Source: Escherichia phage EC150
DNA: 64,000 bases
Sequence record: ON210137.1
Reading direction: 5' to 3' (one strand)
A program made the position numbers and the translations under genes. The notes beneath the pieces were generated by a model. It saw only the letters and a list, made by a program, of their open reading frames with translations, was not told the origin of the DNA and searched no databases. Below, one piece after another: positions 58,065 to 60,191 of the stretch. How positions within the stretch are numbered: the stretch's first letter is position 1; each line of letters starts with the position of its first letter.

Positions 58065-59060
58065 TTATTTATTAGCAATATAAGCAAATTTTTGATAGTT
58101 ATTTGCTTTGATGAGTTTTTCAACTTCAACAAGGTCATGAGCGACGTCATCAAGCAAAATGTTGCGCCAGGTAGCAAATCGACCGACACTAAACACGTTC
58201 AAATCCATGGTCAGCTGCAGGAGTAGGGCGTGTCGCAAGTCTTTCGGAATGTCGACAATCTTGCCATATTTCTGGTCGACCTTTTCAACTTCTTCAAGAG
58301 CAATGTCACTCCATGAGAGGCCAAAAGCTGTCAACACTTCGTCGACTTCTGCGCGCAGCTTGATGTCACGGTAACGAGTGATGCCGCCAGCGGCTTCAAC
58401 TGCAGCTTCACTCACGCTGACCAAAGGAATTGTTTCAATGATCAGTGTGTCGCCAGTGATTGATGCGCGGTAAGTTCTGACGGAGTAGTCAGGGAAGTAA
58501 ATTGTTTGATACAAATCACACTTACGTTTAATCTTAAAGCGGTAAACGCGAATGTTTGCTTTATCAAATGAGAAATCAAGCTTTTGATCAATCCCAGCCA
58601 GCTTCATCATGACTGGCAGCGGCGACGTGTTGATGATTGGCGTCTCGCTATAGCCGCAAAGAGTATCAACCGGAGTATTAAAGAATATGCGGTCACCCAG
58701 TTTGTCGACAAGCTGATCATAAAAGTCATCAGGCGCAATATAACGTGTTGCAGTCTTAAGCTTCATGATTGAACGGCTGCCAAACTGATTGGTGACCTTC
58801 ATGGAATACATATTGGCAAGGTTGATTGGGCAATGGTCGTGGTAGTAGTTGCCGCGAAAATACACAGCCTTGTCAACTGTCACGGCCTTGAAAGGGATTC
58901 CGGTAATACGGCTTACTTCTTCGCCGCGAAAGCGTAGAAGCGCCTTGTGCTGTTGCGCTCGTTCCCCTGCTTCGTACACAATAGAGTTCGGGAAGTGACA
59001 CGCTGTGATAAGTCCTGCCAGTCCGCCGCCGATAATCATTACAGGTTGTTTCATGTTCAT
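58065..59060 (-). CDS. FAD/NAD(P)-binding oxidoreductase-fold protein (UDP-galactopyranose-mutase/amine-oxidase-like)
   Basis: 331 aa. N-terminal dinucleotide-binding VMIIGGGLAGL (GxGxxG). C-terminal ..SVGRFATWRN..LDD.. resembles the Glf/PPOX-type closing motif. Confidence 0.65.
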   Translation of the reverse strand: MNMKQPVMIIGGGLAGLITACHFPNSIVYEAGERAQQHKALLRFRGEEVSRITGIPFKAVTVDKAVYFRGNYYHDHCPINLANMYSMKVTNQFGSRSIMKLKTATRYIAPDDFYDQLVDKLGDRIFFNTPVDTLCGYSETPIINTSPLPVMMKLAGIDQKLDFSFDKANIRVYRFKIKRKCDLYQTIYFPDYSVRTYRASITGDTLIIETIPLVSVSEAAVEAAGGITRYRDIKLRAEVDEVLTAFGLSWSDIALEEVEKVDQKYGKIVDIPKDLRHALLLQLTMDLNVFSVGRFATWRNILLDDVAHDLVEVEKLIKANNYQKFAYIANK

Positions 59061-59137: not shown

Positions 59138-59166
59138 GAAAAAAGACCCACAACAAGTGTGGGTCA
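59138..59166 (-). terminator. rho-independent terminator
   Basis: Stem GACCCACA/TGTGGGTC (59145-59165), followed on the minus strand by TTTTTTCAT. Confidence 0.6.
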
Positions 59167-59192: not shown

Positions 59193-60038
59193 TTATTCCG
59201 CTTGATCACCGTCTTCGGCATCTTCGTTGGATTCAACATCGACAAACTCGATGTGACCCATCTCTTCCAGCTTGCTCAGGTAGGAGCGAACTGAAGCGCC
59301 AAACAGTTGATCTTTAACTTTTTCGCCCAGCTCATCGATAGACTGTGCCACGCCAACTTCGCCTTCTTTGATCGCCGCCAGAACGCGTCCACGGGTGGAA
59401 TGCTCTTGCGGCTGACTCAGGCCATTGCCAGTGTAGATGAAGTGAGTAGCTTTTGCACGACGCTGACCATTGGCCTTTTTGGCAGCCTTACGTTCTGCGA
59501 TGGCTTTGCGACGTTCTTCAGCTTCTTGCTTACGCTGTTCTTTCTGCTGTTCTGCAGCTTCTTTCGCCGCAATCTTAGCAGCTTCACGCTCTGCCTTGCG
59601 TTTCGCTTTGGCTTCTTCTTTGGCCTTCTCTTTTTCGGCCTTCGCTGCAGCACGGGCTTGATCACGCTCTGCTTTCTTAGCAGCAGCTTGTTCAGCTTTC
59701 AGGCGCTTGGCTTCTTCTTTAGCCTTTGCCTTTTCGATTTCTTTCGCTGCTTTAGCGGCTTCACGCTCTGCTTTCTTAGCAGCAGCCTTTTCTGCACGCT
59801 CTTTGGCCTTCTTGGCTGCTTCTTCAGCACGCTTCTGAGCCTTCTCATCAGCAGCCTGCTTGCGTTTCAGGGCAGCTTCTTCACGCTTGGCTTGTTTTTC
59901 CTGCTCACGCTTCTGGCGTTTTTCTTCGGCTTCTTTCTTTTTAGCCAGACGTTTTTCTTCAGCCACGCGACGACGTTCTGCTGCAGCTGCTTGTTTTTCT
60001 TCTTTAGATAATACTTTGATTGCTTCGGCCATGTTCAC
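59193..60038 (-). CDS. K/A/E-rich low-complexity protein with C-terminal winged-helix-like domain
   Basis: 281 aa. About 190 aa are almost pure Lys/Ala/Glu/Arg/Gln (AEEKRLAKKKEAEEKRQKRE...). The C-terminal ~85 aa are globular (..RGRVLAAIKEGEVGVAQSIDELGEKV...VRSYLSKLEEMGHIEF) with an acidic tail. Confidence 0.7.
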   Translation of the reverse strand: MNMAEAIKVLSKEEKQAAAAERRRVAEEKRLAKKKEAEEKRQKREQEKQAKREEAALKRKQAADEKAQKRAEEAAKKAKERAEKAAAKKAEREAAKAAKEIEKAKAKEEAKRLKAEQAAAKKAERDQARAAAKAEKEKAKEEAKAKRKAEREAAKIAAKEAAEQQKEQRKQEAEERRKAIAERKAAKKANGQRRAKATHFIYTGNGLSQPQEHSTRGRVLAAIKEGEVGVAQSIDELGEKVKDQLFGASVRSYLSKLEEMGHIEFVDVESNEDAEDGDQAE

Positions 60039-60191
60039 AGTCCTTAAATAAATTAGTTTATTTTATATTCCCCGTTTGGGATAACTTAATTATGCCTTCA
60101 GTCGCCGCCAGTAGCAACTAAAAACTCTGGCAGCAATGCCACTTTAATTAAACTGATTTTCAGTTTTATTTTTCGTAAATTTACGTCAACA

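What the first reader, a model, noticed from the sequence alone, without database searches (positions are those of the whole stretch)
59193..60038. Extreme Lys/Ala/Glu-rich protein (~190 aa of KAE repeats) fused to a winged-helix-like domain, with its own promoter region and terminator
Residues ~10-200 are almost exclusively K, A, E, R and Q in irregular heptad-like runs (AAKKAEREAAKAAKEIEKAKAKEEAKRLKAEQAAAKKAERDQ...). This resembles histone H1/Hc-like or TolA-like charged single alpha-helix regions. The C-terminal 85 aa look like a winged helix (..RGRVLAAIKEGEVGVAQSIDELGEKV....VRSYLSKLEEMGHIEF) and end in an acidic tail (NEDAEDGDQAE). The gene is monocistronic, with a terminator at 59138-59166 and a long 150-bp upstream region, and sits inside the replication module. 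It is a candidate phage nucleoid-associated or DNA-organising protein, or a molecular ruler or spacer.
Basis: partly seen in the sequence, partly recalled or inferred. Interest (0 to 1): 0.5.

Follow-up and report, generated by a model that had tools for sequence, protein, structure and literature searches.

The report
Phage protein: basic-striped long helix plus winged helix
This conserved gene of PB1-like phages encodes a predicted ~27-nm α-helix made of 11-residue repeats that line up lysines and arginines in one stripe, joined to a small winged-helix domain; it most likely binds DNA without sequence preference, but nobody has tested its function.

Summary
A 279-aa protein (ATG 60032, stop 59193-59195, minus strand) has a tract that is 92% A/K/E/R/Q, a C-terminal winged-helix-like domain and an acidic tail, with its own sigma-70-type promoter and terminator. 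The window is a Wifcevirus E. coli myophage. The gene is PHROG 4765 (unknown function) and occurs in 356 phage records of the PB1-like lineage.

The 'TolA protein' label is a composition artefact. The 'heptad-like/irregular' description is wrong: the tract is about 17 degenerate 11-residue repeats with K/R at positions 3, 7 and 11. That puts a straight basic stripe on one face of a predicted helix about 27 nm long. All 43 distinct relatives have the stripe, in register despite tract lengths of 88-202 aa. dN/dS in the tract is 0.017.

The most conserved polar residues of the winged helix are basic and lie on helix 3 and on an RRxK arm. The nearest precedent is the CAF-1 KER DNA-binding single helix, which works with a winged helix.

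Best reading: a non-specific DNA-binding or DNA-organising protein, functionally coupled to the conserved neighbouring flavoprotein-like gene (PHROG 4828). The protein was detected by MS in CsCl-purified phage, but packaging is unproven. No biochemical test exists.

The parts
59193..60032 (-). CDS, 279 aa plus stop (PHROG 4765).
   Evidence: ORF. AGGA (60041-60044) lies 8 nt before ATG 60032 but only 2 nt before GTG 60038. The same 840-nt CDS is annotated in Mansfield, WFH, FEC19 and WFC. PHROG 4765, E=3e-84. Peptides detected by MS in vB_Eco4M-7 and ECML-117.
59466..60005 (-). Residues 10-189: hendecad (11-residue) repeat tract of about 17 repeats, consensus ~A-E-K-K-A-E-R-E-A-A-K. Predicted as one continuous alpha-helix of ~27 nm, with a K/R stripe on one face and D/E about 180 degrees away.
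   Evidence: AF2 single-sequence model: helix 10-189, pLDDT >90. K/R period 3.70, power 3.85 against a shuffle 95th percentile of 1.81. Per-column counts: K/R [1,2,10,12,5,3,12,4,3,6,10], D/E [7,6,0,2,2,8,0,6,7,3,0]. dN/dS 0.017.
59608..59786 (-). Imperfect internal duplication of 99 nt (33 aa, three hendecads), 1.8 copies, 79% identity.
   Evidence: Tandem Repeats Finder, score 229.
59433..59465 (-). Residues 190-200: Gly hinge, then the conserved basic arm and first beta-strand (Q-RRAKATHFIY).
   Evidence: R191 basic in 81%, R192 in 90%, K194 in 69%, T196 conserved in 79% of 42 family members. The strand at fragment residues 12-15 pairs with the C-terminal strand in the AF2 model.
59238..59432 (-). 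Residues 201-265: winged-helix-like domain (loop, H1, beta, H2, H3 'VRSYLSKLEE', beta).
59196..59237 (-). Residues 266-279: disordered acidic tail (VESNEDAEDGDQAE).
   Evidence: pLDDT <50. Net -6 here. Length 0-39 aa and net 0 to -17 in relatives, and absent in P0008 and P0028. dN/dS 0.33.
60089..60117 (-). Sigma-70-type promoter candidate, TTGCTA-17 nt-CATAAT. The -10 element ends 56 nt before the ATG.
   Evidence: Scan, 9 of 12 matches. Equivalent TTGCxx/TTTACT-17-xATAAT sites end 41-60 nt before the ATG in 7 of 8 genera (best-scoring site in 6, third-ranked in Kyle; PCSE1 has none). The upstream intergenic region is the least variable segment among 7 Wifcevirus genomes (3.8% variable columns).
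60041..60045 (-). Ribosome-binding site AAGGA.
   Evidence: Sequence. An RBS is annotated at the equivalent place in Mansfield.
59139..59165 (-). Intrinsic terminator GACCCACA-CTTGT-TGTGGGTC followed by TTTTTT.
   Evidence: Annotated in Mansfield, WFH and WFC. A comparable hairpin plus T-run follows the orthologue in six genera, and one is annotated in XcP1.
58065..59060 (-). Conserved downstream partner gene (331 aa, GxGxxG Rossmann N-terminus, PHROG 4828, function unknown). A functional link is inferred from the conserved gene pairing.
   Evidence: PHROG 4828, E=7.5e-150. Homologues lie immediately downstream of family members in nearly all loci, including distant relatives with a different N-terminal module (41% and 38% identity, E=3e-76 and 2e-69).

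Best explanation
The gene encodes a non-sequence-specific nucleic-acid (most likely dsDNA) binding protein of the phage replication and nucleotide-metabolism module. It is transcribed as its own unit by host sigma-70 RNA polymerase.

The proposed mechanism has four parts.
1. Residues 10-189 form one long, probably monomeric, alpha-helix. Its 11/3 repeat places about 45-50 Lys/Arg in a straight stripe along ~27 nm, roughly the length of 80 bp. Glu flanking the stripe stabilises the helix through salt bridges. The stripe binds the phosphate backbone, as shown for the CAF-1 KER 'SAH-DBD'.
2. After a Gly hinge, an RRxK arm and a winged helix give a second, local DNA contact. The winged helix has invariant Ser/Arg at the helix-1 N-cap and Arg/Lys on helix 3.
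3. The acidic tail, where present, modulates binding or recruits a partner.
4. The protein acts together with the product of the conserved neighbouring gene (PHROG 4828, flavoprotein-like), for example by holding it on phage DNA.

What is shown: sequence architecture, periodicity, conservation, purifying selection, predicted fold, gene pairing, and protein expression. What is inferred: DNA binding, the monomeric helix, the role of the tail, and the physical link to PHROG 4828.
For: K/R stripe. A period of 3.65-3.70 is significant in 8 of 8 genera. D/E are excluded from hendecad positions 3, 7 and 11. The stripe is coherent in 43 of 43 distinct relatives. Its phase relative to the junction lies within ~145-185 degrees in 37 of 43, despite tract lengths of 88-202 aa.

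Selection. Tract dN/dS is 0.017, with no indels among 7 Wifcevirus genomes. TRF finds no 33-nt array at DNA level, only one 99-nt duplication, so the repeat pattern is kept at the protein level.

Not a coiled coil. There is no 3.5-residue periodicity of Ala or hydrophobic residues, and bulky hydrophobics make up only 3-8% of the tract in the nine phage orthologues.

Precedent. The CAF-1 KER is a K/E/R-rich single helix with a basic stripe. It binds DNA with nM affinity, cooperates with a winged-helix domain, and is sensitive to length and phase (PMC10335832).

Context. The gene lies between a Dda-like helicase and ThyX, next to a RepB primase. Distant relatives also sit near RepB_primase and ThyX.

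Transcription unit. A conserved sigma-70-type promoter and a terminator flank the gene.

Expression. The MS score ranked 6th of 33 proteins in CsCl-purified vB_Eco4M-7.
Against: There is no DNA-binding experiment for any family member.

The tract's net charge is not conserved (+24 here, +4 to +9 in several genera, -8 in P0020), and several orthologues have an acidic overall pI of 4.8-6.1. The junction plus winged helix is roughly neutral (-4 to +3).

AF2 tends to predict long single helices for charged low-complexity sequence, so the monomeric state is untested.

A Gly hinge separates the helix from the winged helix, so the conserved phase may reflect expansion in 11-residue units plus common ancestry, and not a fixed geometry.

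The numerical similarity to the KER stripe could not be tested, because the KER sequence was not retrievable.
Confidence: 0.5

Rival explanations
1. A protein-protein scaffold or spacer. The winged helix docks a protein partner, most plausibly the PHROG 4828 flavoprotein-like product or a replisome component. The long charged helix acts as a rigid single-helix spacer, or binds an acidic protein surface, and does not bind DNA.
Against: The most conserved surface-type residues are Arg, Lys, Ser and His on helix 3, the helix-1 N-cap and the RRxK arm, which is typical of nucleic-acid contacts. A passive spacer does not need D/E excluded from three hendecad positions or a phase-coherent basic stripe. 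Tract length varies from 88 to 202 aa between genera, which argues against a fixed spacer length.
Confidence: 0.2
2. A virion-associated internal protein. It is packaged with the genome, lying along packed DNA, and is possibly co-injected to protect or organise incoming DNA.
For: The protein was detected in CsCl-purified vB_Eco4M-7 with the 6th highest MS score of 33, above the portal, major capsid and sheath proteins, and weakly in ECML-117. 'Putative structural protein' labels appear in JG024, XcP1, Hera and SCUT-S1 records. Wifcevirus phages resist all tested RM systems with no known protection mechanism (PMC11990801).
Against: The same preparation contained DNA helicase, glyoxalase and (in ECML-117) a reductase, so soluble early proteins co-purified. 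The ECML-117 score is only 3.2. The protein is not listed among 31 proteins of Pbunavirus SCUT-S1 ghost particles. It is not mentioned among the Pa193 virion components in the text available here. The gene lies in the replication module behind a sigma-70-type promoter, not in the late structural cluster. The basis of the 'structural' labels could not be traced to data.
Confidence: 0.12
3. A sequence-specific winged-helix transcription factor that regulates the adjacent PHROG 4828 gene or the middle genes. The long helix would serve in oligomerisation.
For: The fold is similar to Fur/PerR, MecI/BlaI, ArsR and MarR regulators. A regulator next to its target is a common arrangement, and a promoter lies between the two genes in several genera.
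Against: No recurring operator-like motif was found. The only nearby perfect palindrome (60174-60185) is unique in the window, and no conserved inverted repeat lies in the downstream intergenic region. There is no hydrophobic heptad pattern for a dimerising coiled coil. High abundance in MS is atypical for a specific regulator.
Confidence: 0.1
4. A TolA homologue or mimic that acts at the cell envelope, as many database records name it.
For: Only the K/A/E-rich composition, which resembles TolA domain II, and the database labels.
Against: There is no TM segment: the Kyte-Doolittle 19-residue maximum is 0.61, against 2.45 in E. coli TolA. The TolA C-terminal domain PF06519 scores E=2e-38 in TolA but is absent here. 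Composition-corrected BLASTP gives E=0.078. TolA domain II has no 3.67-residue K/R periodicity (power 0.07). The protein has no signal peptide and no tol-pal context.
Confidence: 0.02

Closest known systems
CAF-1 large subunit (yeast Cac1 / human CHAF1A): KER single-alpha-helix DNA-binding domain plus C-terminal winged-helix domain
   Same: Both have a long K/E/R-rich uninterrupted helix with the basic residues biased to one face (a 'stripe'). In both, the same polypeptide combines it with a DNA-binding-type winged helix and an acidic region. CAF-1 function depends on helix length and phase. Here, length is invariant within the genus and the register is conserved family-wide (PMC10335832).
   Different: No homology was detected, so the resemblance is most likely convergent. 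The phage helix is about twice as long (180 against 90 aa), Ala-rich (30%), and built from a regular hendecad repeat. The domain order is tract, winged helix, then a short tail within 279 aa. There is no histone-chaperone context. DNA binding is untested here. The KER sequence could not be retrieved for a numerical comparison of periodicity.
PHROG 4765 / 'TolA protein' / 'putative structural protein' of PB1-like myophages (Pbunavirus PB1 gp69, 14-1 gp67/ORF66, JG024 gp67; Serratia MTx; Burkholderia BcepF1)
   Same: These are true orthologues, with the same three-part architecture and the same position after the Dda-like helicase.
   Different: None in kind. Tract length, net charge and tail length differ. 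No family member has a demonstrated function.
E. coli TolA (domain II)
   Same: K/A/E-rich, predicted long helix.
   Different: TolA has a TM anchor and the PF06519 C-terminal domain, lacks the 11/3 K/R periodicity, and is periplasmic.
Linker histone H1 / bacterial Hc1-type proteins
   Same: A winged-helix globular domain combined with a K/A-rich extension. The yeast H1 globular domain appears as a weak Foldseek hit (E=2.6, prob 0.11).
   Different: H1 tails are strongly basic, Pro-containing and disordered until bound. This tract is 20-29% acidic in the nine phage orthologues, predicted helical, periodic, and not consistently basic across orthologues.
Bacillus phage phi29 protein p6 (from my own knowledge; not tested here)
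   Same: An abundant early phage protein in the replication module that coats the viral genome non-specifically, using an N-terminal amphipathic helix, and that carries an acidic C-terminal tail.
   Different: p6 is about 100 aa, has no winged helix and no long repeat helix, and no sequence relationship was examined.
11-residue-repeat (11/3) helices: group-3 LEA proteins, apolipoproteins, alpha-synuclein (from my own knowledge)
   Same: Hendecad periodicity that gives a straight stripe along the helix. LEA-3 repeats are also K/A/E-rich.
   Different: Those proteins present an apolar stripe to membranes or dry surfaces. Here the stripe is basic, and the opposite face is Ala/Glu with almost no bulky hydrophobic residues.

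Membership tests
PHROG 4765 (unknown function) | Significant full-length match to the family profile | tested here: met
   E=3e-84, residues 1-279 against profile positions 14-271 of 294.
TolA | N-terminal transmembrane anchor (domain I) | tested here: not met
   Maximum 19-residue Kyte-Doolittle hydropathy is 0.61, against 2.45 for E. coli TolA residues 14-32.
TolA | TolA C-terminal domain (Pfam PF06519) | tested here: not met
   No Pfam hit at E<=1. Genuine TolA scores E=2e-38.
TolA | Sequence similarity beyond composition | tested here: not met
   Composition-adjusted BLASTP best E=0.078 over 29 residues. TolA-II K/R power at period 3.67 is 0.07, against 2.41 here.
Winged-helix (wHTH) fold | H1-strand-H2-H3-strand topology with a small beta-sheet wing | tested here: met
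Winged-helix (wHTH) fold | Nucleic-acid binding through helix 3 and the wing | not testable with these tools
   Only indirect evidence: R249 and K254 on helix 3, S212/R214 at the helix-1 N-cap and the RRxK arm are the most conserved polar residues in 42 sequences.
SAH DNA-binding domain (CAF-1 KER type) | Long uninterrupted K/E/R-rich alpha-helix without a hydrophobic seam | tested here: met
   AF2 helix 10-189, pLDDT >90. About 6% bulky hydrophobic residues. No 3.5-residue periodicity of Ala or hydrophobic residues. This is a prediction only.
SAH DNA-binding domain (CAF-1 KER type) | Basic residues form a stripe along one face | tested here: met
   K/R resultant 0.39 at 11/3 periodicity; D/E about 180 degrees away; D/E counts of 0 at hendecad positions 3, 7 and 11. 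The stripe is coherent in 43 of 43 relatives.
SAH DNA-binding domain (CAF-1 KER type) | Monomeric helix in solution with non-cooperative unfolding | not testable with these tools
   Needs CD thermal melts plus AUC or SEC-MALS.
SAH DNA-binding domain (CAF-1 KER type) | Binds DNA non-specifically with nM affinity | not testable with these tools
   Needs EMSA or anisotropy.
SAH DNA-binding domain (CAF-1 KER type) | Homology to Cac1/CHAF1A | not tested
   phmmer of the tract and of the whole protein against PDB sequences returned nothing. The relationship is presumed analogous, not homologous.
Canonical (heptad) coiled coil | Hydrophobic residues at the a/d positions of a 3.5-residue repeat | tested here: not met
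   Power at period 3.5 for A or AILVMF is 0.00-0.78 in 8 orthologues, below the shuffle 95th percentile of ~1.3-1.9.
Histone H1 / Hc1-like polycationic DNA condenser | Strongly and consistently basic K/A-rich tail with few acidic residues | tested here: not met
   The tract is 22% D/E here. Net charge is +24 here but +4 to +9 in PB1, Kyle, PCSE1 and Karil-Mokiny and -8 in P0020. Whole-protein pI is 4.8-10.9.
Virion structural protein | Reproducible presence in purified particles | tested here: inconclusive
   Literature only. MS score 1197.6 (6th of 33) in CsCl-purified vB_Eco4M-7 but 3.21 in ECML-117, with replication enzymes also present. Absent from the SCUT-S1 ghost-particle list. Supplementary MS tables for Pa193 and FoX6 were not available.
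Virion structural protein | Encoded in the late or structural gene cluster | tested here: not met
   The gene lies between the Dda-like helicase and ThyX, with primase and polymerase genes around it.

The most novel reading that the evidence does not exclude
The protein would be a viral counterpart of the CAF-1 'SAH-DBD', about twice as long as the longest described. It would coat phage DNA along ~80-bp stretches and tether the conserved PHROG 4828 flavoprotein-like enzyme to it. It would act either as a physical shield or as the targeting subunit of an undescribed DNA-modification or protection pathway. That could account for the unexplained insensitivity of Wifcevirus phages to all tested restriction-modification systems (PMC11990801).
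Probability: 0.1. Interest if true: 0.85.

Novelty: new variant of a known kind. Interest (0 to 1): 0.52.

Why it matters
The gene occurs in all 356 matching phage records of the PB1-like lineage, which includes the Pbunavirus phages widely used in Pseudomonas therapy, yet it is annotated as 'hypothetical', 'TolA' or 'structural'.

If the basic-striped hendecad helix binds DNA, three things follow. First, it would be the first viral or prokaryotic example of a DNA-binding single alpha-helix, a class so far described only for eukaryotic CAF-1. Second, it would be by far the longest such helix. Third, its very regular repeat would make it a good model for how a straight helix reads a DNA duplex.

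The conserved pairing with an uncharacterised flavoprotein-like gene next to ThyX points to an unexplored piece of phage DNA metabolism. That could bear on the unexplained restriction resistance of Wifcevirus phages.

Practically, the analysis shows that the 'TolA protein' label should be dropped. It also shows that gene callers can mis-call the antisense strand of such tracts.

Tried and rejected
- Pfam, NCBIfam and PADLOC scans of the whole protein and of the C-terminal domain found no family, apart from a marginal Csa3 wHTH hit (E=0.011).
- PDB sequence searches with the whole protein, the tract and a domain profile found nothing significant; the best hit was CobT at E=0.31.
- Foldseek against the PDB gave no significant hit. 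AFDB50 was not available. BFVD returned only orthologues.
- The word-indexed homologue search returned only fragments. One apparent stand-alone 80-aa 'domain-only' protein (P0003) turned out to be a truncated call across masked bases.
- The coiled-coil hypothesis was rejected because there is no heptad signal.
- TolA homology was rejected.
- The conserved polycation (H1-like) idea was rejected because net charge is not conserved.
- An operator or recurrent-motif role for the 12-bp palindrome after the helicase stop was rejected: 4 matches against 3.3 expected.
- TSS and TTS data for the 14-1 orthologue from the ONT-cappable-seq paper, and the virion MS tables for Pa193 and FoX6, are in supplements that are not held.
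- The partner protein PHROG 4828 could not be identified. A profile search against PDB sequences matched only the generic GxGxxG FAD/NAD motif (E>=0.16). The 'UDP-galactopyranose mutase' label in the Mansfield record rests on the depositors' HHpred run, which I could not reproduce.
Full report
**What is there.** The window is a Wifcevirus-type E. coli myophage. A 6-kb stretch around the finding is 98.6% identical to phage Mansfield and 94-97% identical to WFH, FEC19, ECML-117, WFC and the BASEL isolates Bas98-101. Its likely start is ATG 60032, not GTG 60038. The AGGA lies 8 nt before the ATG but only 2 nt before the GTG, and four related records annotate the 840-nt CDS. The product has 279 aa. 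Residues 11-200 are 92% A/K/E/R/Q (A 30%, K 23%, E 20%, R 12%, Q 7%), with ten bulky hydrophobic residues. The last 14 residues are acidic. A clean intrinsic terminator follows the stop codon, and 159 bp separate the gene from the upstream helicase gene. So the factual core of the finding is confirmed.

**What the databases call it.** Pfam, NCBIfam and PADLOC give nothing for the whole protein. PHROGs places it in family 4765, 'unknown function', at E=3e-84. GenBank records name it 'hypothetical protein', 'TolA protein' or 'putative structural protein'.

A tblastn search with only the C-terminal 91 residues finds the gene in 356 phage records. Of these, 293 are Pseudomonas PB1-like phages (Pbunavirus). 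The rest are Wifcevirus, Serratia (MTx, Hera), Burkholderia, Xanthomonas, Pantoea, Salmonella, Luteibacter and Vibrio phages. All belong to the PB1-like myophage lineage, which the newest record assigns to the family Lindbergviridae. The 14-1 orthologue is gp67/ORF66 and the PB1 orthologue is gp69/ORF66.

An exhaustive HMM search of 1.84 billion representative proteins found only 45 clusters, so this is a small, phage-restricted family. No paper I could find tests its function.

**The 'TolA' label is a composition artefact.** Genuine E. coli TolA has three features this protein lacks.
- TolA has a TM anchor. Its 19-residue hydropathy maximum is 2.45, against 0.61 here.
- TolA has the Pfam TolA C-terminal domain at E=2e-38, which is absent here.
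- Composition-corrected BLASTP between the two proteins is not significant (E=0.078).

**The tract is a hendecad repeat, not irregular or heptad-like.** Fourier analysis shows no 3.5-residue periodicity of Ala or hydrophobic residues in any of eight orthologues. It does show a strong K/R periodicity at 3.65-3.70 residues (11/3) in all eight, with power 2.0-5.6 against a shuffle 95th percentile of about 1.6.

Written in rows of 11 anchored at the junction, the tract is about 17 degenerate repeats with consensus near A-E-K-K-A-E-R-E-A-A-K. K/R counts per column are 1, 2, 10, 12, 5, 3, 12, 4, 3, 6, 10. D/E counts are 7, 6, 0, 2, 2, 8, 0, 6, 7, 3, 0. Basic residues therefore sit at positions 3, 7 and 11 (spacing 4-4-3), acidic residues are excluded from those positions, and the two classes lie about 180 degrees apart around the helix. 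In most orthologues Ala also leans to the face opposite K/R.

TolA domain II lacks this signal (power 0.07), so it is not a by-product of K/A/E composition. AF2 predicts one continuous helix for residues 10-189 with pLDDT above 90. At 1.5 Å per residue that is about 27 nm, the length of roughly 80 bp of B-DNA.

**The stripe is what is conserved.** I extracted 43 distinct full-length relatives from phage genomes, IMG/VR contigs and the protein library. Their tracts range from 88 to 202 aa. All 43 have a coherent K/R stripe (shuffle p<=0.017 each). In 37 of them the phase measured from the junction motif falls within about 145-185 degrees (Rayleigh p≈2e-13, not corrected for shared ancestry).

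Length changes during evolution have thus preserved the register. This fits the one internal duplication still visible at DNA level, which is 99 nt, or three hendecads. Among seven Wifcevirus genomes the protein is always 279 aa. The tract has 35 variable nucleotide columns but only two variable amino-acid positions. dN/dS is 0.017 for the tract, 0.059 for the junction plus winged helix, and 0.33 for the acidic tail.

By contrast, net charge is not conserved. The tract is +24 here, +4 to +9 in PB1, Kyle, PCSE1 and the Burkholderia phage, and -8 in one relative. Whole-protein pI runs from 4.8 to 10.9. That argues against a histone-H1-like polycation and for a function that depends on the geometry of the stripe.

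**The C-terminal domain.** With a seven-sequence alignment, AF2 gives a confident model with core pLDDT of about 90. Its order is strand, H1, strand, H2, H3, strand, followed by a disordered tail.

- Fur/PerR, MecI/BlaI, ArsR and MarR regulators;
- protein-binding winged helices such as RPA32C, ORC2, Scc1-C, ScpB and T4 MotA-NTD.

Foldseek ranks the same structures first but finds nothing significant (best E=0.41). Independently predicted BFVD models of orthologues superpose at TM 0.80-0.86. So the domain is winged-helix-like, with no close solved relative.

In a 42-sequence family alignment, the best-conserved polar positions are R191, R192, T196, G204, S206, Q209, S212 (100%), R214 (95%), R249 (95% basic), K254 (98% basic) and H260. 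These form an RRxK arm, the N-cap of helix 1 and two basic residues on helix 3, whereas acidic residues occupy variable positions. That pattern is typical of a nucleic-acid-binding winged helix. However, the domain as a whole is about neutral, and protein docking cannot be excluded.

**Transcription unit and expression.** Seven of eight genera have a sigma-70-type match with a 17-nt spacer (TTGCxx or similar, then xATAAT) ending 41-60 nt before the ATG. It is the best-scoring site in six genera and the third-ranked in Kyle, and PCSE1 has no comparable site. Here it is TTGCTA-17-CATAAT at 60117-60089.

Orthologues in six genera show a GC-rich hairpin plus T-run after the stop codon, and XcP1 has an annotated terminator there. 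Among the seven Wifcevirus genomes, the upstream intergenic region is the least variable segment. No RNA data were accessible for this gene.

The protein is made. It was identified by MS in CsCl-purified vB_Eco4M-7 (7 peptides, score 1197.6, 6th of 33, above the portal, capsid and sheath proteins) and weakly in ECML-117 (score 3.2) (PMC7048862). The same samples contained helicase, glyoxalase and a reductase. The orthologue is absent from a Pbunavirus ghost-particle list. Packaging is therefore possible but unproven.

**Genomic associations.** The order Dda-like helicase, this gene, a ~330-aa gene, then ThyX further on is kept in almost every locus that extends far enough.

The ~330-aa neighbour (window 58065-59060) has a GxGxxG Rossmann N-terminus. 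It belongs to PHROG 4828, also of unknown function, and has no Pfam, NCBIfam or PDB sequence match beyond the dinucleotide-binding motif.

Most informative is a distant subgroup of the family. These proteins have the same junction and winged helix but a different, globular-looking N-terminal module in place of the repeat tract. In all four contigs that extend past the gene, a PHROG 4828 homologue still follows immediately (41% and 38% identity, E=3e-76 and 2e-69). In one contig the genes abut, and in another ThyX follows. These relatives also lie beside RepB_primase, DUF2786/DUF7168 and DUF932 genes. The winged-helix module and PHROG 4828 therefore form a conserved pair, whatever is fused to the N-terminus.

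**Closest precedent.** The KER region of the CAF-1 large subunit was described in 2023 as a 'first-in-class' single-alpha-helix DNA-binding domain. [quoted passage not shown] A canonical myosin 7a SAH does not bind DNA (PMC10335832).

The phage protein has the same three ingredients: a basic-striped charged helix, a winged helix and an acidic segment. It differs in having a helix twice as long and a far more regular repeat. I found no sign of homology and could not retrieve the KER sequence for a numerical comparison. I therefore treat this as an analogy.

**Conclusion.** The most likely reading (about 0.5) is a non-sequence-specific DNA-binding or DNA-organising protein of the replication and nucleotide-metabolism module. 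The striped helix and the arm plus winged helix would be two DNA-contacting elements, and the protein would be functionally coupled to PHROG 4828.

The rivals are:
- a protein-protein scaffold in which the winged helix docks PHROG 4828 or a replisome component (0.2);
- a packaged internal protein (0.12, not exclusive of DNA binding);
- a sequence-specific regulator (0.1);
- TolA mimicry (0.02).

[quoted passage not shown] A DNA-coating protein, or a DNA-targeted flavoenzyme, would be an attractive explanation, but nothing here demonstrates it. All functional statements are inferences from sequence, predicted structure, conservation and context.

Noticed in passing
window 58065-59060 (-): A 331-aa protein with a GxGxxG Rossmann N-terminus (PHROG 4828, unknown function; no Pfam, NCBIfam or PDB sequence match). 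It is called 'UDP-galactopyranose mutase', 'oxidoreductase' or 'hypothetical' in different records. It forms a conserved gene pair with the winged-helix family, even in distant relatives, and is usually followed by ThyX.
   Followed up: partly
window 59307-60011 (+); L014 675-1313: The antisense strand of the K/A/E tract carries a long open frame (234 aa, F/L/S/C-rich) that is only a mirror image of the codon bias. In a public assembly (GCA_040384165 contig) a gene caller called such an antisense ORF and truncated the real gene to an 80-aa fragment across masked bases.
   Followed up: yes
window 60174-60185: A perfect 12-bp palindrome, CGTAAATTTACG, lies just after the helicase stop codon. ATTTACG occurs at the same relative place in Serratia phage Hera and Pantoea phage Kyle. 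It is not recurrent in the window (4 matches at <=2 mismatches against 3.3 expected).
   Followed up: partly
window 60128-60142 (-): A short hairpin (TGGCATTGCTGCCA) followed by GAGTTTTTAG lies between the helicase gene and the promoter candidate. It may be a weak terminator of the helicase operon.
   Followed up: no
L004 2475-3348 (Pseudomonas phage antinowhere): The orthologue is annotated as two overlapping CDS (hypothetical plus 'putative structural protein'), with 'repeat_region' features over the tract. This is probably a frameshift or sequencing error in the repeat.
   Followed up: no
L022, L026, L028, L029 (metagenomic contigs): A distant subgroup carries the same junction and winged helix behind a different N-terminal domain (motif ...TYNALTGKSIKKFE.R..AE.RV...; no Pfam match). 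It lies beside DUF2786/DUF7168, DUF932 and RepB_primase genes. The host and element type are unknown.
   Followed up: partly
L012 3101-3607 (P0008): A 168-aa family member has a tract of only 88 aa and no acidic tail. It sits at a divergent promoter region with no helicase or PHROG 4828 neighbour, which shows that the tail and the gene pairing are not universal.
   Followed up: partly
whole phage (literature): Wifcevirus isolates are reported to be insensitive to all tested RM systems except EcoP1_I, with no known genome-protection mechanism. An earlier study reported unusually fast replication of 3-5 min (PMC11990801).
   Followed up: no
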